A DNA stretch of 64,000 nucleotides, taken from assembly GCA_030295235.1 (NCBI GenBank), contig AP026173.1:186001-250000 (forward strand), read 5' to 3'. Source of the DNA: Fistulifera solaris (Eukaryota). The notes under the pieces were generated by a model, which did no database searches, was not told the DNA's origin, and was given only the letters and a program-made list of their open reading frames with translations. Position numbers and translations under genes: made by a program. This document shows positions 2,663 through 51,201 of this stretch, one piece after another. The first letter of the stretch is position 1. Every line of letters begins with the position of its first letter.

Positions 2663-5600
2663 TTAAGCGAAGAGAAAAGCACTTCCGCCTTCATTGATTG
2701 CATAGGAAAACTTCGTTCGCATTTCGTCTTCACTCTCGTAAACAGGTAGATCCAAGGAATTGAAACAAGTGTGCGCCGACATCAGAGCCCCTTTCGTCCC
2801 GCTCGCTTTGTGAATGCTGAACTTTTGAATTCCGCGCATACCTTGAAGCTCCGCAAAACCAGCCAGGGGGGACCTTAGAAGATCCTGTAACGAATTGCAA
2901 GAATGCAGCTTTTTCGTTACGCGAGAGCGAAAACATAATTTTCCAAAACCATTCGATTTGCTCGTCGGTAGCTTTCCAGCCTACATAGTCAGTGTTTGCT
3001 TTTAGATCATCGACGTCGATATCAGGCATGCCCGAAATCAGAAGCTCAAGCTCGCGAGGGGTAAATATAGAAATCAGTTCCGGGCTGACGAGCTCGTAAA
3101 AACCGTCTAGGTAGGCTTTGATTTGATTTTTGATTGCAGTTGTCATGCGGTGCTGGCATACAAGTTTGACGTACTTTTCCTTGTTCTCGTCCACTACAGG
3201 AGTTTTCCGTCCATTCGGAACAAGATCAATGACTTGGCTTCTGCCGAACGAATGATCCTCGATGCTGAAAGTAAGATCCAATCCAATGTCTTCGAGAGGA
3301 TATTCCAAAATAGTCTTCAAATTGCGGTAGTAGTCCGGGTCGATTGCTTCCATATCCTCGTGAGTCGGTTCTACGCCAAGCATATGCTTGTAGAGGCTAC
3401 GTGTAAAATGAGCGTCGAGAAGAAAGCCGTCTACAACTGCTTTGCCCACAATGCGCCCGACAAAGCGGAAGTAGCTAAGATGGTCAGGATTAATGCTGCT
3501 GTTTGGATTGGGCTGAAATGTGCATCCATCCTCTGTAGCAGTGAATAAGGCATAATTAGGGTTGAAGATCTCTTTCGCAAGAATAGCAAAAAATTCACGC
3601 GATAACCCTCCTGCATCAATGCCTTCTTCGTCCCTGAACGTAATGTGAAGGCGACCACGCATCTCCTCGGCATTTCGGAGTCGGAGCTGATGATAGGCGT
3701 CTTCAAATACGTACTTCCGTCTGATTCCAAGTCGTAGACTTTGGTGACCATGTCTTCTGCTCACTTGTTGCCGAAGCCGTCGCACTTGAGATCTAAACCA
3801 TTGACGCTTTACGTCAAAATCAAGAAACACTCGACAGCGAGGAACTTGAACCAAGCATCTTAGCGCCTTATCAAGAAGCCCGGGATTGTTTCGAACGAGT
3901 GCGTTGAGAAGCACTTTGTGCCTGGAAACAAACAACAAGACACTTTCCCCTTCAACCAGGTCTTTCAATTGAATTTCTTGTCTGGAATGTAGCCCTTCCG
4001 TGCCCTCGATGTCAACAGGGCGGGTCACGCTTGCATTGGCAACAAAGAATGCTTCAACGCTTGGAAGAAAGCGGGTGAGCAAGCCTGCTGCACTATTTCG
4101 TAGTTGCTTGGCTTTATTTCCGTTCTCGTCGTTGTGTTCGTTGTCTTCGCCTGCTTTATCAGCTAAATCTTCAAAAGATTTTACTCCTTCAAGCACTTGA
4201 ATATCCGTGAGACAGCCAGAGAGTTCCTCCCATAGTCCACCAAACTCCATTTGGCGCAACAGATGGACCAGCTCATCCGTAACAAACATCACGTTTTCTG
4301 TCTTTCGACTAATTTCATCCGCTCCGTCACTGCAAAGCGCTTGTAACGTCTGTAGGACCCGAAGCAGTTTCAGCTCATTGGTACTTGTCGACAAAGTAAT
4401 GGAATTGAACACTCCTGTATCTTGATTAGTTTCTTCCCTTTGAAAATCTGCAGAGGTACTTTCTTGTGGCTTCTTCTGTGTCAATGACGCTTCCATTCGT
4501 ATCTTCAGACTTCGTAAATCACGTAGTGCGTCAATCCCTAAACCGTGTGCAATAGAAGCAAGCTCGGATAGAACGTATCCTCTGTTACTTTCGACTCTGC
4601 ACAGCCTCCTCACTATAGTGTTGACTTTACCGAATGCAGAATCTCTGCAACTTTCCATTCTTAAAATAGAACAAAGAAGCTGTAGGTAAGAAGGGGGTAT
4701 TTCTACCCTTGGAATATCAACATAAACTTTTCCTGAGGTTTCGGCTGCATCAAGATCGCGTTGCGGGATGTTAGTCTCTTCATCCGGTAGCCGTGCGATG
4801 TGGGAAAAAGGCGAGACAGCACATTCCAAAATAGAAAGAAGAAGTTCGATATTAGTTGAGCTTTTGAGAATCGCTTGATTTCGTAGCAATCCGATGAACT
4901 GCTCAAGCGGAGTCTTCTCGACAAGTTCGTCCCATGGCAAAAGGGTTTGTAGACAGTATCTTGGCGAGTTCTTACAGAGCTGGGTGACCGTTTCCAGCAA
5001 TCTTGTTACCACGATTGGTGGCAAGGTGGTATCATTGAATTGTAAAACTGATGGAAGATTTGCAGCCACCGAGGTTGAGTTGTTAAAGCCGTGTCGATGC
5101 CTAAGCAGCGACGCGGCCATGCTACGTTGAAAGATTCACCTTCGAATGCATCCGGAGTCGCTCCTAATAGAGTTTCTGGTGGAATTTTCGACGAGTCACG
5201 AAACAAATCATCCATTGCCCTTCGCCATTGGTCCGAAGGCAAATATGTCGAACTGAACTGTTCCACTGCGGCGGATAATCTTGCCGGATTTGCGTTCAGT
5301 AAAGCCAGAAAAGCGGTAAGGAAAAACTCGCGTAAACTGGGGATGCTGCAAAAGTTTTGTATAACTTTCTGCATTAGTCGTTGCGGACGTATTGGGGAAA
5401 CCAGAAAAAATAGCTTGATGAAAAGCTTTACGTCGCTCTTACAAACAGGTGAAAAAAGCGAACTGGGTAAATAGACAGTATCGTCTAAATCCTTTTCGAC
5501 CTTGAATTTTCCCGTTCGCTGTCGTTTCTTCTGACTGGGCAATTCACTAACAGTTCCTCGTCCTGTTACAGCGAGTCTTGAGGAATCCGTTCCGTCACCG

Positions 5601-8600
5601 CCGACTGCATTCCCTTGCTGCGCACCGTCAACGTTCTCAGCGAATAGCCTACCATCCCTAAGGCCAGATGCTCTTTCACGCAAAACTTGTGCTTCTGCAA
5701 CTACATCCGGCGGTAGGCTACTAAGAACACTACTATCCGCAGTAAGGAGAACTTCTTCTCTAAGTCCTGGGGCAAGTGACGCAATGAAGCTTGCAGTGTC
5801 CATTTCTTCCGCGTGAGATGGGTCCGCAACCCCATCTCCTTCGATTTGCTGTCTTGCGCGCTCTCTCTCGATTCTATCTTGTTCAATGATATCTCTTCTA
5901 ATGTCCTCCGGCAGCTCTGCAAGTACAGACGGGTCAAGCGTCGACTCGCGGAGTTGCATTTCAAGCTCTTGGGTAGCATTGTATTGGGAAACACAATCAT
6001 GCTGCATTTCCACAGGGAGGCTATTGAATACTTCAGGATCAAAACCCGGAGGACAGACTAATCCATTGCTATTTTCTGCGTGGATTGGTATTGTTCGGTC
6101 AGTCTCTACATTGTCGGTGTCTGTTGTAGCAACGGTAACACGCAGCGAGCTTTCTTCAACGGCGGGAGCGTTGATCGTATCTCCTTCTGGTTCATGCTCC
6201 ATCGACTCTGCAAGCGCATGATCATCACTCTGTCTTTCAGCGGATTCGGGATCAGAAGATGGCCTTTCGACTGAAAGCGCGATTTGTTCGTCACTAGGCG
6301 ACAGTCGCAGACCAGCTTCCAGAGACGACGCCACATGATCCCCTTCACTGTTCACACTCTCATGTTCATTGGCACCATTACTATGTAATTCAGCTTCAAG
6401 GTGTGTATTTGCAGGAAGGGGGTCGGGCCCTAGAACTGGTTCGGTAGAATTTGTATCCATGTCGACTTCAGATGAGTTCATTGTAGCTGCCTGCTGTTGC
6501 AATGGCCTCGACTCGTCGCTCGCCTCTCTCAAAGCTCGCTCGAAGACAGAACTGAAATCCTGAGCACTTGCATCAAGTGGAAGACCATCGTCAGTCCATC
6601 CTATTGGGCGTGATGTATTTCCTTCGCCCATTCCAGCAAATGGATTGCCCAAATTCGTTCTACTTGACCTGACAATGTTTCCATTTGAAGTTGACACTAG
6701 GTAGCCACCTGATGGGAATGATGCATTAGACCAGTCACCAGCACGGCGAGTAGCCATTTGACCTCTTCGCGTTGCGCGAACACCATGAGGCAACAAATCT
6801 GACACAAGAGAATTCATTGGCGGAAGGTCTACTCCGCACAGAAGCGGGTGGAGAGAAAGCTGTGTGCGCGCATTAGTTGCCGACGCAGGCCCACCAGGAA
6901 AGAGCTGCAAATCAAGCTGAGTGAGATTAATCAGTGCATTCGCGTTGGCCTCATCATATGGCTCTTGACTTGGGACTAAATCGTAGTTTCTGCTCCCTGA
7001 CGTAACAGAAGGGCCGCCATAAATGTACTCCATCGAACTGGCTTCTCCCCAGTGTCCACCTCTGCCGAAGGCTGAGTATCCCACCTCCGGCCGACTTCGC
7101 TGGTGAACGTGAGGCAGCGTACCTGTGAGGTCGTTGCGACGTTCCAGGCTAATCGATTGGGCTTCGTCTACAACACGGATCCGAGCTCCATTCGCAATTG
7201 CCGTCCTCAAGCTACGATTGCCTGTCATTATGCGGATTCCCAAAGATCCCTCTATCTCGGCAAGCGCTTCAGCACTTATATCTGTATCTCTCAAAAGGGT
7301 TCCAATCATAGCTTCAGTGGCATCGATTGCACCGCCCTGGCGAGTATCTGAAGAGCGGCGGGCGACTCTGGATCCCATAAGCATGCCTCCAAAGCCCGTC
7401 GACTCGATACGAGTCCAACCGTCCTCTAACTCATGCTCGATACCTTCCGCGCCTCCTCCATCTACTTCATCGTAGGCCATACCGTCGCCGTCATTTTCGT
7501 TTCCTCCGTTGTAATTTTCGCCGTAATCCACAGCCCATTGCTCTTCATAGTCTAACGCGTTACTTTCATCCCTGCTTGACTCATCCATTTCAGAAAGTTC
7601 ATCGTCCTCCTCTTCATCATCATCCTCGTCGTCTTCTTCTTCCTCCTCCTCATCTTCGTCTTCTTCCATGCCAGAATCGTCCGATTCGTCAGAAGCACTA
7701 GAATTGCTCGACTCGATGCTACTCTCTTCCTCGACATCGTCGTCAACTGAAGGTTCTACATCTTCATCCATGTGGTCGGCCGTGTCATTCTCAATCAATT
7801 CGGAGGCATCGACCATCACGTCAAAGTGCCCGTCACCCCTTTCATTGATTTCGGGTATGTATTCACGTGTGCGGAGAACGTTGGCTTGCTGTTCGTCATT
7901 CAAATTTTCAGCGGTTGTGATTTTTACTTCTTCAGCCATTATCGACTCTTTTTTTACTAGCTCATACAAAGCGCTGGTTACAGTCGGGCGTGTCAAAATC
8001 TCAAAAGGATGCAACAACATGCTACAAGTGCTGGAAGCCATCGGATGCGACAGGTTTACCCGTTTCAGCGCATAGAGAAGAGCGTGGGCCATGCCATAAT
8101 CAAGCATCACTTTGATAGTCTCCATGCTAAGAGAAACCGAGCCCTCTAGATTTCTTCCATTGCTTCGAGGAGCAGCAAAGCCAAGACACAACTCTCCCCA
8201 TGCTTGCAAAGCGGACAGTTCGCTAGTAGCAAGCGTTGTCCTTCCTAATGATTGGGTCGGCGACATCGGACCGTGCCCTAGTTGCCCCCACTGAGGCAAA
8301 AGACTAGATCAGCTACTACACGTTTGCGACCTTCGCCAGGACGCGCCACAAGAGCGGCCAACACGCGCGAAGCCGTCTGGGAAACTTTTAGCACCCGGAA
8401 CGCTCGAGCTTTTTTCTCTTTGATTAAAAGTGGCTCAACTTTGTCGTCTTTCTTGCGATTCCATAAGTCGTGATCATTCCGAATAGCCCAACGGTCTTGA
8501 GGCAGCAAGTTATGAAAAATGAAAGAGATGAAGGATTTTGATGGGGCGGGACAACCATGGAGCGCGTGAGTGAGCTGGACCGCGACTTTCTTCGCACGGT

Positions 8601-11600
8601 TTAATCTGTAATTGTAAACAACTGAAGCGCATGTAGGAATGGCCAAAATCAAGTCAGCTAGTATTTGCAGAAGATCCGCCGCCCAGAGAAAAGTAGTATT
8701 TTCATTCTTTGATGATAGCGTCGCCTCGTTGGCTGCCATTTCGATTACCGAGTCGACAACAAGGCAGACAATGAATGAAGTAGGTGTGTCTTTTGAAACA
8801 TGAACTTGCTTGTGATCCGATTTTTCTCTTTGAGGAGTCTTTTTTGAGATGGAGTTACGCTTCGATGACTTGGCGGGAAGCATTCTAATTTTCGAGGGGG
8901 GTGATTCTTTGTTTGATTGAATATCATTTCCAACGACAATTTCTTCCTTGTCGGCCTTCTCCACGGCAGCAAAAAACTCCACTCTGCTTCGTCTGGTCTT
9001 TCCCTCTATCATTCTTATTCGCACCTGTCCGCTTTCTCCTTGATCATGATCGACCTCTACACAGAGAGCAAGAGCTTTCAAAAATGAATCGGGGTCTCTG
9101 TACAGGAGCGGAGTAACGCTGTCGAGCAACGATCTCAATGGAAACGATTTTTGGTCTGTATTGCTTTTTTTACTCAGTTTCGCAATAGCAGCCCTTATTT
9201 CATTTTCCATTGCCATTTGCAGAGAAGTCTCGTCTTCCATCAACCGCCGAAGAACCAACGTGACTAGTCCAGAATTTCCGGTAAAGCGGGCTTCTTGCGG
9301 CAGTTTCAGAATGGCTTCAACGATTCCACACCGAAGAAATTGAGCGGATATATCGGAGAAATGACAGAGCCGGAGCAATAAAAGTAAGGATGCTTGTGCT
9401 AATCCTGGAGATAGGGCGTTGTCCTGTGGAAAATCAACTAGAAGCCGTCTGCAAATAGCGACGCAAGATTGTAGCAGCGAGCTTGGAAGAAGTGGGAAAA
9501 ACGCAGGAAGGGATGCTAAAGAAGCATTCCTCGTCGCACTACGTCTCTTATCGGCGTTCTCAAGATCGGTATCGCTTTTCTCATGATTGTTGCTGCTCGT
9601 TGACTTTTGTGCGTCTAGAGAGCCATCGTGTCCATTAATCAAAGAAAAAACAGAATCCGCCGTATGTGAAAGTTCAGCGAGTCTGTCTTTATGATCCTTG
9701 TGGACACGATGAAAGTCGATTTCTACTTCTGCATTGCCAACTTCATGTTGGTCTCCTGACAATGCAGCGCTTGGCTGAGCCATAATATCAAGGAGCAGCA
9801 GAGATGGGGTCATCCACGCAGGAGTCGAACGTTCCCCCGGGTCCCTCGATTCGAGGTAAACCGATACGCAAGCAACAAGGTCGGACACAATGTTCAATTT
9901 CAGAACTGACAGCCGTGTCCTAGGAAGTGCGCGGATGAAAAGTACTGTGGCGTGGCACAAGGACGCTACGCAACTTTCGTCATCTTTGTCGATTCTGTGT
10001 GGACTCATATCAGCTCCTTCTTTTGGGCGAATCTTTCCGCATAAGTCCCCAAGAATAGAATTCAAAACAAGGTCACGTTTTTCAGGATACTTGTGGCAGA
10101 AGTCCAGCAAGAAAGAAGTGACTACAACAGTAATAGCTTCTCCCTCACCGTCTCCTGTAGTTTTCCCACGAATGTTGACTGAGTTCCTGCTGCTGTGGAG
10201 AAGTTTACACGCTACCTGAGGAATATCATCAGCCCACGACATCAACGCATCGTTTAATCGTTCCCATTCCACGTCCTTGAAAGGTGGCTTCGATAACTTT
10301 GATTCTAGCTCTGATTTTTCTATAGACTCAGGGTTCTCAACTTCGCTTGTCCTGTCTCCCCCCTCAGCTTCTACTCTATCAGTTCGGTGAGAATCCGGAA
10401 GTGCTTGAGCACGTTCTAGTCTCTCAGCACGACGTCGTTCGACTGTTCGTGGGCTAGGAGGAAAATTTGACAGCGCATATTCCATGGCTAAGTCGACTCT
10501 GTTCGACCTGATGCTCTCAATTGCATCGAGTGCATGATCACGTGTAAAACCCATTTCCATTAAACGATTTATTGCCTCTTCACTCGCCTCAAAAGTTTCC
10601 GCGTCTTCTGTTGCTGTTTCTTCGTCATTTTGCATGGGATCGATGTCAGAGCTAATACTTCTACGGCTGCTATGAGCTTGGCCTTGCTGATCAACAGGTG
10701 CCTTTTTCTTGACCGCATCTTCAAGGCAGATAAGAATATCTCCAACCAGTCCCGTTATGGGATGTGTAATGAATGATGGAGTCTGACATAATCGGTTGTC
10801 AAGCCAGCAGCCCTTAACGATATTCGATATGGACAACTGCAAAGATCTGGCAACGGATTCAGGGCGAAAGAAAGGACTTGAACCGCCACCTTCTGGTTGA
10901 AATCGATTGAGATCGCCGACATGAATAAGTGTCGCTGCATCTTTCCAATTCATACGACTCATGATAGAAGCAGCAGGAGAAGAAGACACAGGCGTGGATA
11001 TCAATTTGCGGAGCAAAGTCACGACAGGAGGGAAACTAGCCGCCACGCTGCGGCTTACCAGCCGTTGCTCTCCAGATGAATTTTCTTCGATTACCTTGCG
11101 CTTGCTCGCAAAATCACTGAAACCATGATCCAAAACGAGCCTAATTGCATCGAACATATTGAGTTGAGTATCGTCGCTGGTGGCCGAGCTGTCGCAAGAA
11201 GCAATCAGGTTTACAAGCAGTGGAAAATTTATTGCCCTCCGCTCTCTTCTGTCTTCAAAGAGGCAAGCGTAGATGTGGTTGACGATGCAGCTTAGGTACA
11301 TCGCTATCCCACCAGAACCGATTTCCAGTGTACCTTCCTTACCCCGTATACATTTCACAACTGGTGGTAAAGACAGCGCCGTTTTTACGTTTTCAGCAAG
11401 GATCCCAGTGGTCCACGCTATGTGGGCTCCAACTGTACCCTCATCAAAAGATACAGCTCTAACTTGCAAGGTGCGTATCCCTTGGGTCACCAAGCGTGAT
11501 AGAGAACTAAAAAGCTCAGCATACCCTGCTTGGCCCCTGGCAAGCACACCAACAGCTACTGTTTTGAGGTCCGGTACTCCAGCTTCAACGCGCTTTCGAG

Positions 11601-14600
11601 GCTCTGTCAAATCTTTTACATCGTCGTCGCATTCACCATGGGCGGAAGATTCGTCCCATATGCTCAATACCTCTGCTATTGGCTCACGCCCATGGCCACG
11701 GGTCATCTCTGACACCCAACCCCGATTTGTGCGGTACCTCATGATCCCAGATGAATTTATACACCGATCATCAGCAACTACAACTTCTCCCATTTCCATA
11801 TTACCGACATTTGCACAAGAATCTATCTCCATGCCATCCCGTAGAACAGCGCCCTCTGGACAAACTATTCGCAGCTTATACCGCCGTGCATTAACGCGTA
11901 GCGTCAAACGATTCACTTCGTTTGCCTCAAACCATTCTTCGGTCCTGACTCGACAAACATCGAAAAGTGTCAAACGGTGAAACTCGGCGATCCGTGAGAG
12001 AATGTTCTCAAAGTAAGAGGATGATATTTCCTTTTTCCACTCCCTTTCCGACCGACTCCATCCGGTCATATCTTGGCTCCTTTGCGATGCAGCCTTTATT
12101 GCCATTGCAACGATATTTGTAATCCACTGAATCTGTGCAACGTGGCGTAGATATTTCGAAAGATGTCTTGCTTGATCCAGTGGAAGAGGCTCTTTGCCAA
12201 CTAAATATGGTTCTTCGGGAAATGATTCTATTACAGAACACCCAACATCTGACAAAGGGTTTGTCGACATCGGTCGAAATCATCGAGATAAGACTTCGCT
12301 ACCGCGCCAATCTTTCGAACGAGTTTCAATGTATCGTAGCGGACGTACAAGCTTTTCAAGGTAACTGACAATGCTTCTTCGAGTTTAGAGTGATGCAAAG
12401 TTCCTAAAGACGGCGAACTCATACCAGATACGTGGGATAAAAATTGCAAGCCAGATGGCATCGACGCAGGAAATATCTTGAGTAAAGCGTCTAATCCACC
12501 GGCTTCGACAAAAGCTTCACAATGATCTTCGTTGTGTAGTATTTGCTCCAGCAATTGCGAAAAGTTCATGACATATTGAATAAGACAAGTTCGCATTTCT
12601 TCTACATCCTTCTCCTCATGACGATATCCATCTTCTAGAACTGTCAGCTCGTCTGCGAACAAAACAACTCGATTCATTGCTTCAGATATGGCCTGCAATA
12701 TTTGAGGGCGAAGACGATCTACATGCCGCATAACTTCGTCGAGACCAGTTCCAATCACAGCAGTCATTTCATTAAGAAGACACCGACTTCTAGGCATAGC
12801 ATACGCAGGATGATATAAAACGCGAAGCAGCGCTGGAAAAGGGTTTTTGCTCTTCACCGCCTTAGCACCATCTTCTGTTAGCGAAAACGCCGCAAGAACA
12901 TTTGGTATCGCCATGATCAGCTCAGACACAGCTGGTATTGAGGGGTCACCGCTCTCCGTCGTCCTCATGATCATGTTGATAAAAGCATCAGCGAGCCCCG
13001 ATTTATGAACGTGATTGACACAGTGAGGGTCACTGTTTAGTATTTCAGTGAGCATTGCTGAAACCAAAGCGACGAGGTTGCCGCCGAAAACTTCCACATT
13101 ATCCAGAATAGCAATAAGCGCCTTCTTCAAAACAGGTTTCCTTATTTCAGCACCGCCAGGGAGCGTAGTGCCCGACATGGCAGCAGACGTTGATTCTGGC
13201 TGAAACACAACGTTAAGGCAAGTCAATAAAGTGAACAACAAGACTTGCTGCGAAGAGCGGATCCGAACTGAATTTTCGACTAAAACCATCTCAGAATTTC
13301 CATCCGGGTCGACATATGATATGATTGGTACACCTGTGAACTCAATCTCTCGAGAAAGAACTTTCATCACAACGTCTAGACCACTCAGCTCATGAAACGT
13401 CAACAGAGCATTACCATGCGTGACGAATGCTCCTTCCAGAAGCTGCACAGCCTGGGAAATGACGTAACGCAGCATACACGAAATGCGGACGTCATTTTCC
13501 ACGCCAAGTTCCTTCAAAGTATGAACTGGATCCACCGATACTGTCGTAAGCAAGGTCGGAATAATACCACAGTCCACCAGCGCCGAAGTGCCAGCAGGGG
13601 TGGCAACTACTGCGGATGTCAAGGTAAGGATGCTGTCAATGAAGGCTAAGGCCTGCTCTACTTGGAATTTTCGTGGAACCCTGCTTGAAGTGAGAGCTGT
13701 TGCTTCCAGAAACGCCATGCCGATTTCCAATGACTCGTTTTCGGGCGGGCTTGTCGGTGGCACCTCCGTTGTATGTAGACAGGAGAGCGAATACCGAATC
13801 AACGTCGGTAATACACCAAGGTACTGTCCCTTCCCAACACCCAATTCAATCAAAACAGATGACAATCGAGTTGTCCCCGTCAACGCACCATTCGTTAAAC
13901 CGTCTCTTCGTAAAACGAGAGCGGCCAGCGCTTCGACCGCCAACAGTCGAACCTCATAGGGAATCACGTTCTGCAGCAAGTTCTCCACCGTTGGATGGGG
14001 AGCAACATGTGCTCCACTCACCGTAGGGCGTATCAGATCGACCACTTCCGCACATAATTCGGGTTGGGCAGAAAAGTAATTGGTAATGGCGTCTTGTGAC
14101 GGATGCGAGTGCAGCATGATGATCAAAGCTCGGAGACGGCGTTCAACAGCCTTGATTCGACTATCTCGACAATGAAATGACTTCGCCAAACGAATATCTG
14201 AAAGCAAGGCAAATTGACGCTCCTTCGGAACTTGCGGACACGAAAAGAATAGTTCCGCGGTTGATTTGACGCTGGTGACTTTCCGCCGTTTGTTACTATC
14301 GTCAAACTGTCGATCCACCAGTATATCCTTCCCCGTCAAAACAATCTCCTGCAGATCGGGATTATAATATTTGAAGTGCACTTCCCCAGCTTCCGCTGGC
14401 AAACTTTCCTGTTCGTCCGTGAGAACTGTCGTCTCCAAACCGAGTCCCAGCGCTCGTGTGCCCCAACCGCGCGCACACGCCACCACCCGATGGAGGGGGA
14501 AGTTGATGCAACGACGTGGCGTGCACCGAAGGTTCCGGTGCTTGCTGTTTGTGCAAGGCCGGGGGCAATGCGAGCGCTTGCAAGGCCGCCAATGCCACAT

Positions 14601-15125
14601 CGACAATGTCTTCCGAAGAGGCCGCCAACAACTCCAACAAAATCGAAGTCGACTGATAGATCGATTTGCCCGTCGCATTGCGGAGTATCGTTTCCGTGAA
14701 GGAGAGAAGCACCAGGAGGTACGACATCACTTCCTGGGGTACATCTAAAGTATCTTCCAAGTTTTTGACGTATTCACGCTTCGGATCCTCTGACGGAACT
14801 AGGAGAATCGATCGACTGTGTTTAACCAGAATTGATTCCAAAGCAGCATCGATGACATTCAATTGATGAATCCAGCAATGCAAATCAATCTATGACGTAA
14901 TAAATGAGTACCGAATTCGTTCCCAAAAGTATGACTTTGAAAAACGTACCTGCTGTTCGAGCGATCGCTGATGCACAGGTTGCAACAAATTCACCAATTT
15001 TTCCAAGGAACCCTCAACAAGAGGTAACTTGACAGCCTGCAACTCATCAAAGACATTTTGAAAGACATCATCGTCTAGATTTTTGAGGCTGGATAGCCAG
15101 TTCCACTGGCTAAGATAGTAGGCAT
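2663..15125 (-). CDS. HUWE1/Tom1/UPL1-type giant HECT E3 ubiquitin ligase (split by indels; one 5' intron near 14890-14950)
   Basis: C-terminal HECT domain: EEGIDAGGLSREFF, FRFVGRIVGKA, FLQFVTGSSKVP, then MSAHTCFNSLDLP with the catalytic Cys near 2767 and YAINEGGSAFLFA-stop at 2663-2665. UBM-like repeats (DPEVFNSLP, DPSVLAELPEDIRR) at 5700-6060. Acidic stretch at 7550-7790. UBA (INRLMEMGFTRDHALDA) near 10470-10580. N-terminal armadillo-like DUF908/913-type region. 5' end is approximate. Confidence 0.92.
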
Positions 15126-44332: not shown

Positions 44333-45437
44333 TTAGAAACCTTGCCAAATCTCATCGTACTCGGGCAACCCCATGGCACGATTCCAGGGACGATTATCTT
44401 CGACCGATTCGTAGACACCTTTCACGACAATGGGGGCCGTCGCGCGTAGTTCCTTGGTTGGATCGGGTGCTGGCACTTGTTGCAGAAGCGTCTGGGCCCA
44501 GGATGCCTCCCAAGGAAAGGGACGCGCGGCGGCTCCCGTGTCGCGGACGCGAATGTGTTTCCAAAACGCCACCATGAGTGTGACGCGACGTCCCACCGCC
44601 GTGCCCTTTCCGGGGACGACACCGTGTAACACCTTTCCATCCATGACCACCAATTGATTCGATTTTGCGGGACACAACCACGCCGTGTCGGCCAACGCGC
44701 GACTCGAAACACGTTGTTGTGTTACCACGGACGGTCCTCCACACGGAGCATCGAGATACAATATACAGGTAACGATGGGGTGCTGGACGACACCACCACA
44801 ACCTTCATTGTCGGTATCAAAATGGAACTGATGTCCACTCGCGTGCGGCCGATTGTGTGCCCACAATTCGACCGCTGTCGCTTGTTGAATCGATGATGAC
44901 TTGAGTCGGGCACTCGTCGACTGCAAGGAACGCAAGAGATTCCCGAGACAGGAGGTGGTGTCGATCGACTCCAGGGGGACGACAAAACTATAGTACGGAC
45001 TGGGTGGTTCGACGCTGTAGCTGTGATGCACCCAGTAGTCTGCCCCGGGATCTAGAAACGCGTCTCGGAGAATGTTCAGTGTCAACGGATCTAAATAATC
45101 GTTGTAAATCTGACAGGGTGGATTCGGGGGGCTTTCGAGCGGCGATGATGTTGGGTAGTCGAGAATGCCGTGCGCCAGACGACACTTGTATCCCAGTACT
45201 TTTAAGATGACATCCGCCTGTTGGGTTCTACCCGATTGAATATACAGCAATGCCAAGCGTTCGCCAGCCGTTATGACAGTATCATTCGAAAGATCCGGCA
45301 CGACGTTGGCTTCCCAAATTCCCTCGATACGAATCTTCCACTTCTTCTAAATTACAGTTTTCGCTCAACCATCTCAAACGAGCCTCACGGCAGACTTCTT
45401 TTTGTTTCGTGAAAGAATTGCTTTCAACCTGTTGCAT
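44333..45437 (-). CDS. 2OG-Fe(II) oxygenase-like hypothetical protein
   Basis: HxD motif (HQFHFDTD), CILYL, distal His (VLHGV) and RRVTLMVAFW. 5' end is uncertain. Confidence 0.65.
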
Positions 45438-45875
45438 GGATTTGTTTCGAACTAGGTAAATAGGAAGGTTCATCCACCGCAAACAAAAAAGAACGGGCGA
45501 ATAATAATGCGATTGTGGCGCGCTCCTCGCGATTCGCGATCTTGGCGATTGGTGACTGAATCCAGTCGTGACGAAATCCGCCTACATTTTTGTGACTATA
45601 GTAGGGAATGACGAAATCGGCTCCTTACTACGTAGATTGAGCGGAACGAAGTTCCTCTTGTACATAAAGGGATAGAGTAAATCACCGCTACGACACTCTG
45701 TGCGCGGTGGAACCCAGCAGATGTTCTCGCCGTCGGCACGAGCTTTTTCTATTTATTTTCGATCAAACACAAATGCCATGATAAAGAGAGTAATGCAATC
45801 CCATTTCTGTGACCTCTTTCATCCCCAAGTACTTTCTTTCTTTGCTTTGATCCCCTTAATACCTGATTCTTCTGT

Positions 45876-48800
45876 ATGGGTCGTTTTCGGCACCCAATTT
45901 CTCTCATGATTCTGACATTTCTCGCACGGAGTCGATCGCTCGTATGGGTTAACGCGTGGAGTGCATCCTTGCGTACAACAAAGAGAGGGCGAGCACTCTT
46001 CGAACCATTTTATTTCGTGAATAATCGATCCGGTCGTAGCTTGTCGGTATCGGCGGTGGATCTTGCCGATGTCGACACTGAAAGCGCAGACGGATCGTTT
46101 GCATCGGATGCCTTTCAAGTTCAGGCGCCCTTTCCACCGGCGGGAGATCAACCAGCAGCGATACAGGCGTTGATTGAGCGGGTGCAGCAAGGTGATCGGT
46201 TTGCCTTATTGCGGGGTTGCACTGGCACAGGAAAGACGTTGGTCATGAGTCACGTGATTGCCGGCACGCAAAAGCCGACCCTCGTCTTGTGTCACAACAA
46301 GACGTTGGCGGCGCAATTGGCGCGGGAATTGCGGGCCTTTCTCGGACCCGTCGTCGAACTGTTTGTCAGTTATTACAATCATTACCGTCCCGAGTTTTAT
46401 CGCGAAACGACGGGAACGTATATGGCGAAAAAATCGTCAGTCAATCCGGATTTGGACGTGTTGCGGCACCGAGCGACGCGTGCCCTCGCGTCGCGAAGAA
46501 ATGTGGTGGTAGTCGCGTCGGTGAGTTGCTTGTTTGGTTTGGGGCTGCCCAAGGAATATTTGGATGCCTGTGTACACTACAAGACCCATGACCCTTTGGA
46601 TTGGGATGAGTTCGTAGAGAAGTTGACTCGATTGCAGTACCGAATGGCGGTAGACGATGACAGTTTTGAAAGAGGGAAATACCAGGTTTTACACGATGAC
46701 AGCTCGGACTCGAAAGTGATAACCTTATGGCCTCCTTACGAAAAATTCCCCATGCAGCTGGTTGTCGCTCCAATGGCGGCGAATTCGACGCAATTTTCGG
46801 TTCGAAGGATTCTACAAGGAAATCAAGACGGATTTCATCCAATCAACGGATGCAAACTTTTCCCCGCTAGTCATCATGTTACACATGATATGGAAGCGGC
46901 GTGTCTCTCCATTGAGGAAGAATTACAGGAAAGGATTAAATACTTCAATGACATGGGGAACAAAGACGCGTGCAATCGCTTGCAAGTTTCTGTATTAAGA
47001 GACTTGGATCAACTTCGTACTTGGCACAGTTGCAAGGGCATTGAGAACTACAGTCGCCATTTAGCGGGTCGACCTGCTGGCTTACCTCCCGACACTTTAT
47101 TGGATTACATGAGACTACTTAATGGGGATGATTGGCTACTCATGATGGATGAAAGCCACGTGACGCTGCCTCAACTGAGCAGTATGTTTCGAGGCGATCA
47201 GTCTCGAAAGCGTCAATTAGTCAAACACGGTTTTCGGTTGCCATCTGCATTGGACAACCGCCCACTCAATGAACACGAATTCTGGGACCGTGCCAGTCAA
47301 ACAATTTTTGTTTCGGCGACTCCGTCACCCCGTGAACTTGCACTAACAAACAGCGACCCCATAGATATGATCATCCGACCCACCCATGTTTGTGACCCGA
47401 AGATCGAGGTTCGGCCGGCTGATGGAAAGCACATCAATGATTTGATCGAGGAGGTAAAAACTCGCGCAAAGAAAAAGCAAGGAAGTCTCGTTATCACCCT
47501 GACTAAGCGAGATGCAGAAGATCTGGCTAGCCATTTGGAAGGATGTGGTGTGAAGAGTGCGTATTTGCATTCCGGTTTGAAAACGCTCGAGCGCTCGAAT
47601 GCTTTGCGAGCTTTGCAACTGCGAGAAATCGACTGTATAGTTGGCATCAACTGTTTGCGTGAGGGACTCGACTTGCCGCAAGTATCTCTAGTGGCGGTTC
47701 TTAATGCCGACTGTGAAGGATTCCTGCGGTCCGAATCGGCATTGCTTCAAGTGGTCGGTCGTGCGGCTCGAAACGTTCATGGAATGGCAATCTTTTATGC
47801 GAACCGAGTGACAGATAGCATGAAACGGTGCATGGATTTGACAGCGCATCGACGACAATTACAGCTTGACTACAATAAGAAGAATGGGTGTTCTACGAGA
47901 TCAACAACAGGATCTTCGGCGCTATCCTTTTTGATTTACTCAAGGAACAGATTGAGTTGGAAAAGGGCTGATGGCAGAAGAGTCCAAAGCAGTCCAACTT
48001 GCTAGTTTTACTTCGGAGCCTTTACAAATTATTTCTGCTCAGAAAGGAAAAAGTCAGATTGTGACTGACCACATACCGAATACACCCGGCGTTTACTTCT
48101 GGAAAGACGACGAAGGATCGATACTGTATATTGGGAAGGGTGTCAATCTTCGTAGTCGTGTTAAATCATATATTTCGCCAAGTGCCAAACACGGCCCTCG
48201 TATCAAGGAAATGGTTCGGCGAGCCAAGTCGGTTGACGTTGTCTTGACAGCCAGCGAACGCGACGCATTACTTCTCGAATCAAATTACATTAAGCATCAC
48301 CAGCCCCCTTTTAATGTTCTTTTGAAAGATGATGAACATTATCCTTACATTTGTGCCAGTGTGGGAGACTCGATTCCGAGTCTCACTGTTGTGCCATACC
48401 GGAAGCCAGAACATGTCAGTGGATCGTCGCGTTACCGATACTTTGGCCCGTATACGAGCTTCCAAGAAATCAATGCCATTCTTGATGACATAGAGCGAAT
48501 GTATGACTTGAGAGTTAAATCATTCATGACTCGCCAAGGATCTTTGTCGAAAGAAGCATACAATGAGCTCTTTGACAAAGCATTAGAGGAGATTTTCGGC
48601 GACTCCAGAGGGCTTTCTCACAATTTGCGCATACGGCGCCGCCAATACGAAGAGGCGGGGCTGCTATTTGATTCAGAGAGTAATGCATGCAGGGATGTTG
48701 TAACCGTCCAGCTTTTACAAGATGATAAAGCCATCGTGAGTGTGATGCAACTTCGAAGTGGGATCATGGCTGGAAGGTATAAATATACCTGTCAAGTCTC

Positions 48801-49697
48801 CGCTGGTCTTGGGGATGAGGATCTAGGATCGGTCCTTCAGACTGTTCTGACCGAAAGACATTATCCGTCAGGAGGCGAACACTCAACAAGCTGGTTTCCC
48901 GACAATGTGTTACTCTCTCTTCCTGCGTTAGACGTAAAAGTTTTGAAAGAGAGTATTCGAGAAAGTCGTTCACGGATCGAACCGAATAGAAAAGGAAGGA
49001 TTCAAGTTAGGACAGCTGCAACACGTGGTGCGCAGAAGGAAATTGATGAAAGAACTTTAGAGTTTGCAACAAAAACATGTTTCAGGACTTACTTACCCAT
49101 GCCAACCAATACAGCATTTCTTTGAATGGAGATTTGGCGTCCACGGAGTTGGCTGATCTATTGGCTTTAGAAAATCCTCCGTCGCGCATCGAGTGCTACG
49201 ATATCAGCCATACGCAGGGAGAGAATGCCGTTGCATCGAGGGTCGTGTTTGAGAATGGCGAGCCGCAGCCTCACTTATACCGACAATTTGTAATCCGATC
49301 TGTCGTTGGTATCGATGATTATGCTAGTATAGAGGAAGTTTTGGAGCGGCGTTTTCGGCGGGCGTTTAAATCCAATACGGATCTGGATGGAGACGACCCA
49401 TGGGCAGTTCCAGATCTAGTAGTGATTGATGGAGGTAAAGGACAGTTAAACGCAGCTGTAAAAGGAATTTCGAAAGCAGCTGAATCACCGGAAGGCCAAT
49501 TCGATATTCGATCACTAGTCGCCGTATGCGCTTTGGCGAAAGACAAGGAGGAAGTTTTTGTGCCTGGTCGAGGTGATCCAGTTAATGATCACCCCGACTC
49601 GCGCGCTTTGCTTTTGTTGAGAGCCCTCCGTGACGAAAGCCATCGTTTTGCATTGAAGGCACATCGAAAGAGGCGGTCGGTTTTGAAACATGTATAG
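45876..49697 (+). CDS. Apparent UvrB-UvrC fusion protein (bacterial-type excinuclease) with N-terminal targeting leader; indel-split near 47930-47970 and ~49075
   Basis: UvrB: PAGDQPAAI, GCTGTGKT, HNKTLAAQL, FVSYY, GIENYSRHL, DESHVT, GFRLPSALDNRPL, VSATP, LREGLDLP, GRAARN. UvrC: GVYFW...LYIGKGVNLRSRV (GIY-YIG), ALLLESNYIK, RIECYDISH, DDYA, PDLVVIDGGKGQL, LRDESHRFA. Confidence 0.88.
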
Positions 49698-49764
49698 TAC
49701 AAGTCCCAAACAACTTATAGAACCTAGACTTCCCCTTTGTTGGAAATTTTCGATTATTTTATGA

Positions 49765-51201
49765 TCATTCGTAAAGTGACGACCCTTCCGCCTCCAACTT
49801 CTTTCCAATATTTACAAAATCCACAATTTGATCCGGATCCGACGCCCCCACAATGATTTTATCAATGCCCTTTTCTTTCCACACATGCCGTAAGGCAAAC
49901 TCTTGTAATCGCATGTCGTCTGGCACAGGATACTTGGGAGAATCCCCACCACCATCTTCTCCATGGATCAACAGATGTCGCACATTTTTGGCGATTGAAT
50001 ACTTGACCGCCAAATTGAACGCCCCAAAGAATGCCTCCAAAACTTTGGCCGTATCTTCGTCGTAGGACTCGAACGTGTCATGGATCAAAGGAATGACTTG
50101 TTGCAGCAAAAATTCTTCGTGCGCCGCATAGGATCGCACTCGATCGAGACCCGCATCCACATCGTGCAACAAGCTCTGCATGAGCTTACATCCATCCAAC
50201 GTTTCTCGTTGATCGGTATCCAATTCAATCCCTTGTGACTTGAGTTCCAAAATTTCTTCAGCATCAAAATGTGCCATGGCGGCCTTCAATGCGACTTGAT
50301 AGGCTTCCGGAAGTCCTGTCATTTGATGAGTCCATTGCAGTGGATCGTTCTTGTTCATAGTGGCGGGTAGTAAATAATCGCGCAACACAAACGGATGTGA
50401 GGTGGAAGTTCCTCGATCCGGATAACACGACAACGGCCGCATGGCATAATATTGAATGTGTGCGGGTGCATCTTTCTTGCTCTTTAGAAAATCAGAATGT
50501 TCCAACAGGTTGTAAGGGAATTGTACGACACAAAAATCGGGCGTATCTTGTTGCAACGCGGGCGCCACGTGGTGCAGCCAGGACAAATGCAAGGGATGCG
50601 TCGGAGGCAAACTGAATCCATTGCTAACAATCCCGTACGAATGCAAAGGACTCTCACGAACGAGCCTTTGAAGTTCTCTACAAGATTCTGACAATTGATG
50701 AGCCAGTGTTTCATCCTTCTGATCTTGTAGATTGTGATTCTTTTGGACTTCAGGATTGTGCAGCAAAACGACCAATTCAAGATGATCCGGATATTGTTCC
50801 GCCAATTTCATCAACGGCGACTGTGTCAAAGCGTAATCCAAGTAATTGGGTCCTATATTGTGCAATACTCGATTTTTTTCAACGACGACATCGCCCGGAA
50901 AGAAGTTACCGTGAATTTCTTCGGTCCCCGTTTCGGCTTCCGCGACGGATCGATATCCGACTCGTAAGAGACATTGAATTTTGCGGGGCATTTCCTTTTC
51001 TAAAATTTGTGCCAACGCCGCATCCCCTCCTTCCGTTCCCGCTTCGATACACGAGATACCTTGTTGTACAGCGGTTTGCACGAGGAGTGGATACTGCGAC
51101 GAACGCCATTTCGAGCCGCCCAAGCCGAGGCGATCGATTGCCACTGTCGATAGACATCGTTTACTGATTGTTATTCTTCTTAATAGCGTTGAGGGAATCA
51201 T
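49765..51201 (-). CDS. Aldo-keto reductase-like (NADP-dependent oxidoreductase fold) protein, probably mitochondrion-targeted
   Basis: RLGLGG, VLLHNPE, YGIVSN, VQFPYNLLE and IIVGAS resemble AKR segments. Arg/Ser-rich leader (MIPSTLLRRITISKRCLS). Confidence 0.6.
   Translation of the reverse strand: MIPSTLLRRITISKRCLSTVAIDRLGLGGSKWRSSQYPLLVQTAVQQGISCIEAGTEGGDAALAQILEKEMPRKIQCLLRVGYRSVAEAETGTEEIHGNFFPGDVVVEKNRVLHNIGPNYLDYALTQSPLMKLAEQYPDHLELVVLLHNPEVQKNHNLQDQKDETLAHQLSESCRELQRLVRESPLHSYGIVSNGFSLPPTHPLHLSWLHHVAPALQQDTPDFCVVQFPYNLLEHSDFLKSKKDAPAHIQYYAMRPLSCYPDRGTSTSHPFVLRDYLLPATMNKNDPLQWTHQMTGLPEAYQVALKAAMAHFDAEEILELKSQGIELDTDQRETLDGCKLMQSLLHDVDAGLDRVRSYAAHEEFLLQQVIPLIHDTFESYDEDTAKVLEAFFGAFNLAVKYSIAKNVRHLLIHGEDGGGDSPKYPVPDDMRLQEFALRHVWKEKGIDKIIVGASDPDQIVDFVNIGKKLEAEGSSLYE

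What the first reader, a model, noticed from the sequence alone, without database searches (positions are those of the whole stretch)
45876..49697. Nuclear-encoded single-chain UvrB-UvrC excinuclease with an organelle-type leader
Seen: a complete UvrB helicase-like core runs straight into the UvrC GIY-YIG and RNase H-like nuclease domains with no intergenic space. The ORFs overlap at 47971-48005, and the UvrC part has no leader of its own. Restoring one base in each of two homopolymers (ttttt near 47930, and aaaaggg near 47961-47967) gives a continuous ...SFFDLLKEQIELEKGLMAEE... linker. An N-terminal extension (MILTFLARSRSLVWVNA|WSAS...) resembles a signal+transit peptide. Established: UvrABC is the prokaryotic nucleotide-excision-repair system, with B and C normally separate polypeptides. 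Inference: this is a fused damage-verification plus dual-incision enzyme for plastid (or mitochondrial) DNA repair in an alga. Homologues may already be in databases, but I know of no functional description.
Basis: partly seen in the sequence, partly recalled or inferred. Interest (0 to 1): 0.78.

Follow-up and report, generated by a model that had tools for sequence, protein, structure and literature searches.

The report
Fused UvrB–UvrC repair enzyme, diatom
A diatom nuclear gene joins the bacterial DNA-repair proteins UvrB and UvrC into one chain behind a plastid-type import signal; its apparent breaks are sequencing errors, and the fusion is widespread in algae but apparently unstudied.

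Summary
Window 45876-49697 (+) carries a UvrB core followed by the UvrC GIY-YIG and RNase H-like nuclease domains. Each is a one-base deficit in a homopolymer: T5 47928-47932, A4 47961-47964, A5 49071-49075.

Every bridging read-derived contig in four public runs from two studies has one extra base at each site. The four frame segments match GenBank GAX28303.1 (Fistulifera solaris, 1264 aa) exactly and together cover all 1264 residues. So the breaks are assembly errors and the gene is one intronless ORF.

The fusion is conserved. 77 of the 120 listed long relatives carry it, from diatoms, Triparma, Chromera and Bathycoccus, and it occurs in complete transcripts. All nuclease and ATPase catalytic residues are kept. 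Both UVR tether domains, the UvrC Cys-rich segment and the (HhH)2 domain are lost or truncated, and UvrB domain 2 has diverged.

The leader fits the diatom signal-peptide-plus-aromatic plastid motif: 44 of 56 relatives against about 12 in controls.

Whether UvrA is present could not be tested. Ten literature searches found no description of the fusion. Verdict: real, already deposited, a new variant of a known system.

The parts
45876..45956 (+). Signal-peptide-like N-terminus, MGRFRHPISLMILTFLARSRSLVWVNA. The first ATG is at 45876. The second ATG, at 45906, is the start of the GenBank model. The predicted cleavage is after Ala27 (45954-45956), before Trp28.
   Evidence: The homeolog model P0123 starts at the upstream ATG. 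pLDDT is below 50 for residues 1-7 and 9-76.
45957..46103 (+). Transit-peptide-like stretch that begins with Trp (+1 aromatic) and runs up to the UvrB core.
   Evidence: motif. (ASAFind requires F/W/Y/L at +1). (low-confidence, unstructured). (the UvrB model starts at ORF1 residue 80).
46104..47906 (+). UvrB core, covering domains 1a, 1b, 2 and 3. Landmarks: Walker A 46215-46238, beta-hairpin base 46362-46400, DESH 47148-47159.
   Evidence: aligns to B. caldotenax UvrB 2fdc positions 4-587 of 658. (ATPase motifs invariant in 76 of 76). (model pLDDT 86; TM-score on target 0.92 to 6o8e).
46548..46913 (+). UvrB domain 2. In bacteria this is the UvrA/Mfd-binding domain. Here the fold is kept but the sequence has diverged.
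   Evidence: identity to bacteria 0.23, against 0.52-0.55 in the other three regions; length 114-193 in 76 eukaryotes against 112-113 in 97 bacteria; the bacterial FRVR arginines are replaced. PF17757 is not detected at E <= 1; pLDDT 92-97.
47907..48087 (+). Linker that replaces the UvrB C-terminal tail and UVR domain and runs into UvrC. It holds two of the three frame breaks.
   Evidence: The motif S-x-F-D-[LI] is conserved in the six representative fusions shown, from diatoms, Triparma, Chromera and Bathycoccus.
47928..47932 (+). Assembly error 1: T5 should be T6.
   Evidence: table 4. A T is inserted behind 47927 in all bridging contigs: X1 32.8 of 32.8, X3 27.1 of 27.1, X4 6.7 of 6.7, and one X2 contig.
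47961..47964 (+). Assembly error 2: A4 should be A5.
   Evidence: table 4. The identical allele has +A behind 47960 and the divergent allele has +T behind 47956. Together these account for all the depth in X1, X3, X4 and X2.
48088..48306 (+). UvrC GIY-YIG nuclease domain, the 3' incision site.
   Evidence: PF01541, E 5.9e-07; catalytic Y, Y, R, E and N are conserved in 77 of 77 fusions.
48307..48693 (+). Inter-domain region in which the bacterial Cys-rich segment is deleted and the UVR (UvrB-binding) domain is truncated.
   Evidence: Cys-rich segment: 10 residues against 29, and 0 Cys against 4. UVR domain: 19 residues against 40 (medians; 77 eukaryotic against 60 bacterial sequences). TIGR00194 positions 147-238 are unmatched.
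48694..49041 (+). UvrC RNase H1-like (non-catalytic) domain. The match is weak.
   Evidence: PF22920, E 5.4e-04, 20.3 bits, below the 24.3-bit cut-off.
49071..49075 (+). Assembly error 3: A5 should be A6.
   Evidence: table 4. +A behind 49070 or +G behind 49073 accounts for all the depth: X1 11.2 + 17.9 of 29.1, X2 9.06 of 9.06, X3 25.8 of 25.8, X4 136.1 of 136.1.
49155..49652 (+). UvrC RNase H-like endonuclease domain, the 5' incision site.
   Evidence: PF08459, E 5.4e-45. D 77 of 77, D 76 of 77, H 76 of 77.
49653..49697 (+). Short C-terminal tail and stop codon (49695-49697). There is no (HhH)2 domain.
   Evidence: (HhH)2 region median 2 residues against 56; no HhH family at E <= 1.

Best explanation
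The region is one intact, intronless nuclear gene of a raphid diatom. It is identical in protein to Fistulifera solaris GAX28303.1 and encodes a chain of about 1264-1274 aa.

Architecture, from N to C terminus:
- a bipartite plastid-type presequence (ER signal peptide, then a transit peptide starting with Trp);
- a UvrB ATPase/helicase core with its beta-hairpin;
- a linker of about 60 residues;
- the UvrC GIY-YIG nuclease;
- a shortened middle region;
- the UvrC RNase H-like nuclease.

The three frame breaks in the window are homopolymer under-calls of the assembly, not biology.

Proposed mechanism (inferred). After import into the plastid, the UvrB module binds and verifies a bulky lesion with its hairpin and ATPase. 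The two covalently tethered nucleases then cut 3' (GIY-YIG) and 5' (RNase H-like) of the lesion. The covalent link replaces the UVR-UVR coiled-coil that recruits UvrC to UvrB in bacteria, which would explain why both UVR domains were lost or truncated.

Whether a UvrA loads the enzyme is open. Domain 2 has lost residues that are invariant in bacteria, so I put about even-to-lower odds on a canonical UvrA hand-off.

Shown here: the gene is continuous, it is conserved, the domains and catalytic residues are present, and the leader motif is present. Inferred: plastid location, NER activity, and fusion as a replacement for the tether.
For: Continuity of the gene:
- Every bridging contig of runs X1-X4 (two studies) carries +1 base at each of the three homopolymers. 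The contigs of the identical allele otherwise show 0 other letters (tables 4 and 8).
- The four frame segments match P0122/GAX28303.1 exactly over residues 1-675, 676-688, 687-1057 and 1057-1264 of 1264. That protein was called on a 294-kb genomic contig.
- Purifying selection: 31 of the 40 listed differences between the two alleles fall on third codon positions (table 3; 217 more are not shown).

Conservation of the fusion:
- 77 of the 120 listed long relatives have UvrB followed by UvrC in one chain. Named sources are 11 diatom taxa, 2 Triparma and Chromera, plus Bathycoccus.
- Complete MMETSP transcripts carry the fused ORF in Thalassionema nitzschioides and Extubocellulus spinifer.
- In a tree, 19 fused sequences sit on one side of a branch against 36 bacterial UvrBs, with SH-aLRT 100.

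Active sites: ATPase motifs are kept in 76 of 76. The GIY-YIG residues Y, Y, R, E and N are kept in 77 of 77. The RNase H-like D, D, H are kept in 77, 76 and 76 of 77.

Tether loss: none of the 77 fusions lists Pfam UVR (PF02151) or UvrB_inter (PF17757), while the 42 other listed proteins (bacterial-type UvrBs) list them in 41 and 42 cases. P0122 shows no UVR or HhH at E <= 1. The UvrC UVR region has a median of 19 residues against 40, and the (HhH)2 region 2 against 56.

Leader: the h-region plus [AGSC]|[FWY] test is met by 44 of 56, against 12.3 +/- 3.0 for shuffles (maximum 24 in 200), 12 for reversed sequences and 9.7 +/- 2.8 for internal segments. ASAFind requires F, W, Y or L at +1 (passages). 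The leader is unstructured in the model.

Nuclear context: the neighbours are eukaryotic genes.

Plausibility: UvrBC complexes find lesions without UvrA in E. coli (abstract only).
Against: - No localisation, expression or activity data exist for this protein.
- My leader test is a home-made heuristic, not SignalP or ASAFind. 12 of 56 relatives fail it. In the window's leader the hydrophobic stretch is interrupted by R-S-R-S.
- The whole protein scores 678.5 bits on TIGR00631, below the 750.1 cut-off.
- Runs X1, X3 and X4 may come from the same organism or data source as the assembly, so only X2 and the GenBank record are clearly independent.
- Domain 2 is confidently folded, so it may still bind a partner such as a co-evolved UvrA.
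- Webster et al. 2012 (passages) report that R194E double mutants still form UvrA2B2 with wild-type affinity. The loss of that arginine therefore does not by itself show loss of UvrA binding.
- The (HhH)2 domain is missing. From memory, it is needed for 5' incision in E. coli. Dual incision is therefore not assured.
Confidence: 0.8

Rival explanations
1. The gene is a real pseudogene in this strain: three genuine frameshifts have inactivated a formerly fused gene.
For: The window as given has three frame breaks.
Against: All three breaks are one-base deficits in homopolymers. The read-derived contigs of the identical allele differ from the window only at those sites. All 1264 residues match GAX28303.1 exactly. 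A second large gene in the window, the HECT E3 at 2730-14678, is also cut into overlapping ORFs, which fits a systematic assembly problem.
Confidence: 0.03
2. The frame is restored at the RNA or translation level, by transcriptional slippage or programmed frameshifting at the homopolymers, and the DNA truly has the shorter runs.
For: Runs X1, X3 and X4 are labelled 'RNA? (a guess)', so their extra bases could in principle be RNA-level.
Against: Run X2 (labelled 'DNA?', a metagenome from another study) has the same extra bases. The GenBank protein is a conceptual translation of a 294-kb genomic contig and is continuous. None of the other fused relatives shown at these junctions needs any such event.
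Confidence: 0.01
3. The region is bacterial contamination, or an operon of separate uvrB and uvrC genes.
For: Both halves are of bacterial type.
Against: The flanks hold eukaryotic genes and GC content is uniform. There is a 66-76-residue leader (from the second or the first ATG) that bacterial UvrB lacks. The nearest bacterial UvrB is only 46-48% identical and the nearest UvrC 32-36%. Eukaryotic transcriptomes contain the fusion.
Confidence: 0.005
4. The fused enzyme is real but works in another compartment, such as the mitochondrion, the periplastidial space or the ER, or is dually targeted.
For: No localisation data exist. The h-region of the window's leader is weak. 12 of 56 relatives fail the motif test.
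Against: The signal-peptide-like stretch followed by an aromatic +1 residue is strongly enriched. It is the defining feature of diatom plastid import. Chromera shows SYA|F.
Confidence: 0.15
5. The enzyme uses the canonical pathway: a plastid-targeted UvrA still finds lesions and loads the UvrB module, and the fusion only speeds up the incision step.
For: Domain 2 keeps its fold with high confidence. R194 mutants of bacterial UvrB still bind UvrA (passages). From memory, UvrB loads poorly without UvrA.
Against: Domain 2 is the least conserved part: identity 0.23 against 0.52-0.55 elsewhere, with lineage-specific insertions up to 193 residues. The bacterially invariant basic residues of FRVR (97 of 97 R; 97 of 97 R or K) survive in only 5 and 12 of 76 fusions. 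PF17757 is undetectable.
Confidence: 0.5

Closest known systems
GenBank GAX28303.1 (and homeolog GAX13544.1), 'excinuclease ABC subunit B [Fistulifera solaris]'
   Same: The window's four frame segments match GAX28303.1 exactly and together cover all 1264 residues. The homeolog is about 87-92% identical.
   Different: The deposited name covers only the UvrB half. The window's assembly lacks three bases.
Bacterial UvrB (TIGR00631; for example B. caldotenax 2fdc, 6o8e)
   Same: The helicase core, beta-hairpin and ATPase motifs are shared, with 42-48% identity. The model superposes with TM-score 0.92.
   Different: There is no C-terminal UVR domain. Domain 2 has diverged and varies in length. The hairpin Tyr at the position I recall as B. 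caldotenax Y95 is mostly His. The chain is fused to UvrC and carries an N-terminal leader. The score is below the equivalog cut-off.
Bacterial UvrC (TIGR00194)
   Same: The GIY-YIG and RNase H-like catalytic residues are all kept, and the whole-protein score of 320.7 is above the 285.45 cut-off.
   Different: The Cys-rich segment is deleted, the UVR domain is truncated and the (HhH)2 domain is absent. The nearest standalone UvrCs, from Chloroflexota/Anaerolineales, are only 32-36% identical.
Non-covalent UvrBC complex of E. coli and B. caldotenax (Springall et al. 2018, PMC5814901, abstract; Seck et al. 2023, PMC10085695, passages)
   Same: The same two activities act together. The bacterial complex can find lesions without UvrA.
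   Different: In bacteria the complex is held together by UVR-UVR contacts. Here the link is a peptide bond and the UVR domains are lost or truncated.
Land-plant 'uvrB/C' (AT2G03390-type UVR-motif protein; PMC4824065, passages)
   Same: It is plastid-targeted and carries a UvrB/UvrC-derived name.
   Different: The plant protein has only the short UVR motif plus a YccV domain. It has no helicase and no nuclease. The algal protein has the helicase and both nucleases but lacks an intact UVR motif.
Reverse-order fusion family (P0099, P0139, P0143, P0147; unnamed metagenome and Logan sources)
   Same: UvrB and the UvrC RNase H domain are in one chain behind a leader-like N-terminus.
   Different: The order is UvrC(RNase H + HhH) then UvrB. 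No GIY-YIG domain is detected, and the HhH domain is kept.

Membership tests
UvrB (TIGR00631 / NF003673) | SF2 ATPase/helicase motifs (Walker A, DESH, motif III, motif VI) | tested here: met
   the invariant residues are kept in 76 of 76 fusions, including the window's protein.
UvrB (TIGR00631 / NF003673) | Beta-hairpin with aromatic residues at its base | tested here: met
   the window has FVSYYNHYRPEFY. The position I recall as B. caldotenax Y95 is His in 46 of 76 fusions and Tyr in 96 of 97 bacteria; the other aromatic positions are kept.
UvrB (TIGR00631 / NF003673) | Domain 2 (Pfam UvrB_inter PF17757), the UvrA/Mfd-binding surface | tested here: inconclusive
   The fold is predicted with pLDDT 92-97. 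PF17757 is not detected at E <= 1. Identity to bacteria is 0.23. The bacterially invariant arginines are replaced.
UvrB (TIGR00631 / NF003673) | C-terminal UVR domain (PF02151) that recruits UvrC | tested here: not met
   the match ends at model position 585-589 of 658 (TIGR00631) or 653 (NF003673). No PF02151 is found at E <= 1.
UvrB (TIGR00631 / NF003673) | Score above the curated equivalog cut-off | tested here: not met
   678.5 bits against a cut-off of 750.1.
UvrC (TIGR00194) | GIY-YIG catalytic residues | tested here: met
   Y, Y, R, E and N are kept in 77 of 77.
UvrC (TIGR00194) | RNase H-like (EndoV-like) endonuclease D-D-H triad | tested here: met
   77, 76 and 76 of 77. PF08459 matches at E 5.4e-45.
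UvrC (TIGR00194) | Cys-rich (four-Cys) segment | tested here: not met
   10 residues against 29, and a median of 0 Cys against 4.
UvrC (TIGR00194) | UVR (UvrB-binding) domain | tested here: not met
   a median of 19 residues against 40, and no PF02151.
UvrC (TIGR00194) | C-terminal (HhH)2 DNA-binding domain | tested here: not met
   the protein ends 15 residues after RDESHRF. The region has a median of 2 residues against 56.
UvrC (TIGR00194) | Score above the curated cut-off | tested here: met
   320.7 bits against a cut-off of 285.45, for the continuous protein P0122.
UvrABC nucleotide excision repair system | A UvrA partner encoded in the same genome | not testable with these tools
   No genome is held for the window. 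The atlas look-up with a bacterial UvrA gave rows recorded as bacterial (nine; one only 74%) or with no taxa recorded.
Diatom nuclear-encoded plastid proteins (ASAFAP-type bipartite presequence) | Signal peptide followed by F, W, Y or L at +1 of the transit peptide | tested here: met
   (the window has ...SLVWVNA|WSAS; 44 of 56 relatives against about 12 in controls). This was my own heuristic; SignalP and ASAFind were not run.
Diatom nuclear-encoded plastid proteins (ASAFAP-type bipartite presequence) | Experimentally shown plastid localisation | not testable with these tools
   No occurrence of Uvr or excinuclease terms in the 8 supplementary files of the ASAFind paper.

The most novel reading that the evidence does not exclude
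The algal UvrB-UvrC chain is a self-sufficient, UvrA-independent excision-repair enzyme of plastids. One polypeptide finds, verifies and cuts out bulky lesions. The peptide link made the UVR tether, the Cys-rich segment and the (HhH)2 domain dispensable, and freed domain 2 from its UvrA/Mfd contacts. The fused proteins group together, apart from the sampled bacterial UvrBs, across green (Bathycoccus) and red-derived (diatom, Triparma, Chromera) plastid lineages. It would therefore be an old, overlooked organellar NER system that land plants lack.
Probability: 0.35. Interest if true: 0.8.

Novelty: new variant of a known kind. Interest (0 to 1): 0.6.

Why it matters
First, bacterial NER is a textbook three-protein system. 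The architecture of the UvrB-UvrC incision complex is still unknown (Seck et al. 2023, passages). A natural single-chain UvrBC that has shed its tether domains is a ready-made object for structural and single-molecule work.

Second, it points to nucleotide excision repair in the plastids of diatoms and other major marine algae. The searches run here found no description of that.

Third, there are practical consequences for annotation. The assembly behind this window has homopolymer deletions that split genes. The public name 'excinuclease ABC subunit B' hides the UvrC half of the protein.

Tried and rejected
- Whole-genome search for UvrA: no genome is held for the window.
- Earlier findings of this scan: nothing by place, words or sequence.
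- RNA evidence: no RNA holder is listed for the stretch, so expression of this copy was not assessed.
- Donor phylogeny:
  - The search for related loci in genome contigs returned only 2 loci, a planctomycete MAG and a Tepidibacter MAG.
  - By E-value the UvrB half is nearest to cyanobacteria and the UvrC half to Chloroflexota.
  - In the tree of 19 of the 77 fusions plus 36 of the 97 bacterial UvrBs (13 named, one unnamed partner of a named cluster, 22 drawn at random), the eukaryotic group is not nested in cyanobacteria, and long-branch warnings apply.
  - The donor is left unresolved.
- UvrA in algae through the ESM Atlas with a planctomycete UvrA (L021): nine of the ten rows shown are recorded as bacterial (one only 74%) and one has no taxa recorded, so this was uninformative.
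- Literature: ten searches found no paper describing an algal or eukaryotic UvrB-UvrC fusion.
  - The 2006 GIY-YIG survey lists UvrC in 310 bacteria, 8 archaea and no eukaryotes (passages).
  - The library lacks most subscription journals, so absence from print is not proven.
- Papers not held: the EMBO J 2004 paper on UvrB domain 2 was not available by DOI or by a recalled PMC id. The role of R183, R194, R196, R213 and E215 in UvrA binding is therefore recalled, not verified. partly speaks against it for R194.
- Supplements:
  - The ASAFind paper's 8 files hold no Uvr or excinuclease terms.
Those tables might list this protein or a UvrA.
- Complex prediction was not used. No claim here depends on it.
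- Introns as the cause of the frame changes: rejected. The deposited protein is collinear with the window apart from the three single bases.


Full report
**What is in the window.**
Three ORFs on the + strand overlap head to tail: 45876-48005 (709 aa), 47971-49125 (384 aa) and 49077-49697 (206 aa).
- ORF1 is a UvrB (TIGR00631 positions 2-585 of 658, E 2.8e-204).
- ORF2 is the N-terminal part of UvrC (GIY-YIG; TIGR00194 positions 7-146).
- ORF3 is the UvrC RNase H-like endonuclease (PF08459, E 5.4e-45; TIGR00194 positions 367-535 of 574).

The reading frame steps back by one base three times, at T5 47928-47932, A4 47961-47964 and A5 49071-49075. The third break, inside UvrC, was missed.

**The breaks are assembly errors.**
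I laid Logan contigs of four public runs (coded X1-X4, two studies) on 45700-49800.
- At each of the three sites every bridging contig has one extra base.
- Site 1: +T behind 47927.
- Site 2: +A behind 47960 in the allele identical to the window, or +T behind 47956 in a second allele about 7% divergent.
- Site 3: +A behind 49070, or +G behind 49073 in the divergent allele.
- The depths with the insertion add up to the full depth in each run. The one exception is X2 at 47927, where two other contigs simply end.

Contigs of the identical allele otherwise show 0 other letters (table 8, records 1-4, 6, 7).

Independently, the cluster of the best database hit contains GenBank GAX28303.1, 'excinuclease ABC subunit B [Fistulifera solaris]', 1264 aa, called on a 294-kb contig. 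The window's four frame segments match it exactly over residues 1-675, 676-688, 687-1057 and 1057-1264, which is all 1264 residues. Its junctions read ...SALSFFDLLKEQIELEKGLMAEESKAVQL... and ...LEFATKNMFQDLLTHANQ....

There are no introns. Of the 40 allele differences listed (217 more are not shown), 31 lie on third codon positions, so both copies are under purifying selection.

A second large gene in the window is likewise chopped into four overlapping ORFs. It is a HUWE1-like HECT E3 ligase at 2730-14678 on the minus strand. This fits systematic homopolymer under-calling, but I did not check it with reads.

**Context.**
The neighbours are eukaryotic: the HECT/UBA/UBM/DUF908/DUF913 ligase, a cNMP-binding protein kinase and a PhoD-like phosphatase. 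GC content is even at 0.43-0.50. This is nuclear DNA of a diatom, not a contaminant.

**The fusion is a conserved family.**
A search restricted to long proteins listed 120 hits.
- 77 have UvrB followed by UvrC in one chain of 1243-1774 aa.
- Named sources are Seminavis, Cyclotella, Cylindrotheca, Nitzschia (two), Pseudo-nitzschia, Mayamaea, Epithemia, Thalassiosira profunda, Bacillariaceae MAGs, Triparma (two) and Chromera velia.
- A further cluster of 559 members includes Bathycoccus prasinos.
- One hit (P0099) has the reverse order.
- The remaining 42 are UvrBs of bacterial type. Those that carry a name are bacterial. Most carry inteins.

Complete transcriptome ORFs of the fusion exist for Thalassionema nitzschioides and Extubocellulus spinifer, so in relatives it is one mRNA.

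I built a quick maximum-likelihood tree of the UvrB part. It used 19 of the 77 fusions and 36 of 97 bacterial UvrBs: 13 named, one unnamed partner of a named cluster, and 22 drawn at random. All fusions lie on one side of a branch with SH-aLRT 100. The tool warns of long branches, and the bacterial sample is biased to the best hits.

The donor is unresolved. The UvrB half is nearest by E-value to cyanobacteria (46-48% identity). The UvrC half is nearest to Chloroflexota/Anaerolineales (32-36%). In the tree the eukaryotic group is not nested inside cyanobacteria.

**What was kept and what was lost.**
I aligned 76 fusions with 97 bacterial UvrBs, and 77 fusions with 60 bacterial UvrCs.

Kept:
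- Walker A, DESH, motif III and motif VI invariants in 76 of 76.
- GIY-YIG residues Y, Y, R, E and N in 77 of 77.
- RNase H-like D, D, H in 77, 76 and 76 of 77.

Lost or reduced:
- The UvrB match stops at model position about 587 of 658, so the C-terminal UVR domain is gone.
- The UvrC Cys-rich segment is deleted: 10 residues against 29, and a median of 0 Cys against 4.
- The UvrC UVR domain is cut to a median of 19 residues from 40.
- The (HhH)2 domain is absent: 2 residues against 56. The protein ends 15 residues after RDESHRF.
- Pfam finds no UVR, UvrB_inter or HhH in P0122 even at E <= 1.
- None of the 77 fusions lists PF02151 or PF17757. The 42 other listed proteins list them in 41 and 42 cases.

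UvrB domain 2 is the least conserved part.
- Its identity to bacteria is 0.23, against 0.52-0.55 in the other three regions.
- Its length is 114-193 residues, against a fixed 112-113 in bacteria.
- The bacterial F-R-V-R/K motif is basic at both positions in 97 of 97. It keeps Arg in only 5 and 12 of 76 fusions.
- Its fold is nevertheless predicted with pLDDT 92-97. The whole core model superposes on solved UvrB structures with TM-score 0.92.

**The leader.**
Before the UvrB core lie 76 residues from the first ATG, or 66 from the second. They are unstructured in the model, with pLDDT 29-43. They read MGRFRHPISL-MILTFLARSRSLVWVNA|WSAS...

I applied a simple test of my own: an 8-residue hydrophobic window followed within 12 residues by [AGSC][FWY].
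- 44 of the 56 N-terminally complete stramenopile/chromerid relatives pass. The Bathycoccus group was left out of this test.
- Shuffled leaders give 12.3 +/- 3.0 (maximum 24 in 200 shuffles).
- Reversed leaders give 12.
- Internal segments give 9.7 +/- 2.8.

ASAFind defines diatom plastid proteins by a signal peptide followed by F, W, Y or L at +1 (passages). Plastid targeting is therefore the best-supported reading, but it remains a prediction.

**How it most likely works.**
*Shown:* one chain carries an intact UvrB motor and both UvrC active sites behind a plastid-type leader.

*Inferred:* after import, the UvrB module verifies lesions, and the tethered GIY-YIG and RNase H-like domains cut 3' and 5' of them. 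In bacteria UvrC is recruited through the homologous UVR domains of UvrB and UvrC (passages). Here a peptide bond does that job, which explains why both UVR domains decayed.

*Open:* how the enzyme is loaded.
- The divergence of domain 2 suggests a changed or lost UvrA/Mfd contact.
- E. coli UvrBC can find lesions without UvrA (abstract).
- Against this, domain 2 is still folded.
- R194E double mutants of bacterial UvrB still form UvrA2B2 (passages).
- I could not test whether these algae encode UvrA.
- The missing (HhH)2 domain may also limit 5' incision (recalled, not checked).

**Novelty.**
The protein is deposited and auto-named after its UvrB half only. Ten full-text searches found no description of a eukaryotic UvrB-UvrC fusion.
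- The 2006 GIY-YIG survey lists no eukaryotic UvrC.
- The plant 'uvrB/C' gene is only a UVR-motif protein.

I rate it a new variant of a known kind: a real, conserved, streamlined single-chain form of the UvrBC incision machinery.

Noticed in passing
window 2730-14678 (-): Four overlapping ORFs (2730-5120, 5006-8299, 8278-12270, 12231-14678) together carry DUF908, DUF913, UBA, UBM and HECT domains. This looks like one HUWE1/TOM1-like giant E3 ligase gene, apparently split by the same kind of frame errors. The junction at 8278-8299 contains C5 and A4 runs.
   Followed up: partly
window 45700-49800 (reads): The runs hold two versions of the gene. One is identical to the window. The other is about 7% divergent in DNA and corresponds to the second deposited protein, GAX13544.1, at about 87-92% amino-acid identity. 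Differences fall mostly on third codon positions, so both copies look functional.
   Followed up: partly
proteins P0099, P0139, P0143, P0147 (unnamed ENA/Logan sources): A separate family has the opposite order: the UvrC RNase H endonuclease plus HhH comes first and a full UvrB follows. No GIY-YIG domain is detected, and the N-terminus looks like a leader. This may be an independent second fusion of the same two proteins.
   Followed up: partly
proteins P0074-P0120: Many UvrBs of bacterial type (those that carry a name are bacterial) are over 1240 aa because they carry inteins (PF14528/PF14890). One, P0077, is a UvrB-UvrA fusion. Another, P0079, is UvrB joined to UvrD-like helicase domains.
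   Followed up: no
window 49765-51201 (-) and 44333-45301 (-): The two flanking ORFs (478 aa and 322 aa) have no Pfam match at E <= 1e-4. The 478-aa ORF ends only 68 bases from the stop of the UvrBC gene, in convergent orientation.
   Followed up: no
The two halves point to different nearest bacteria by E-value: cyanobacteria for the UvrB half and Chloroflexota/Anaerolineales for the UvrC half. This could mean a chimeric origin, or only unequal divergence.
   Followed up: partly
protein P0073 (Chromera velia), domain 2: An acidic insertion of about 60 residues, rich in Glu and Asp, sits inside UvrB domain 2. It is the most extreme case of the length variation of this domain among the fusions.
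   Followed up: no
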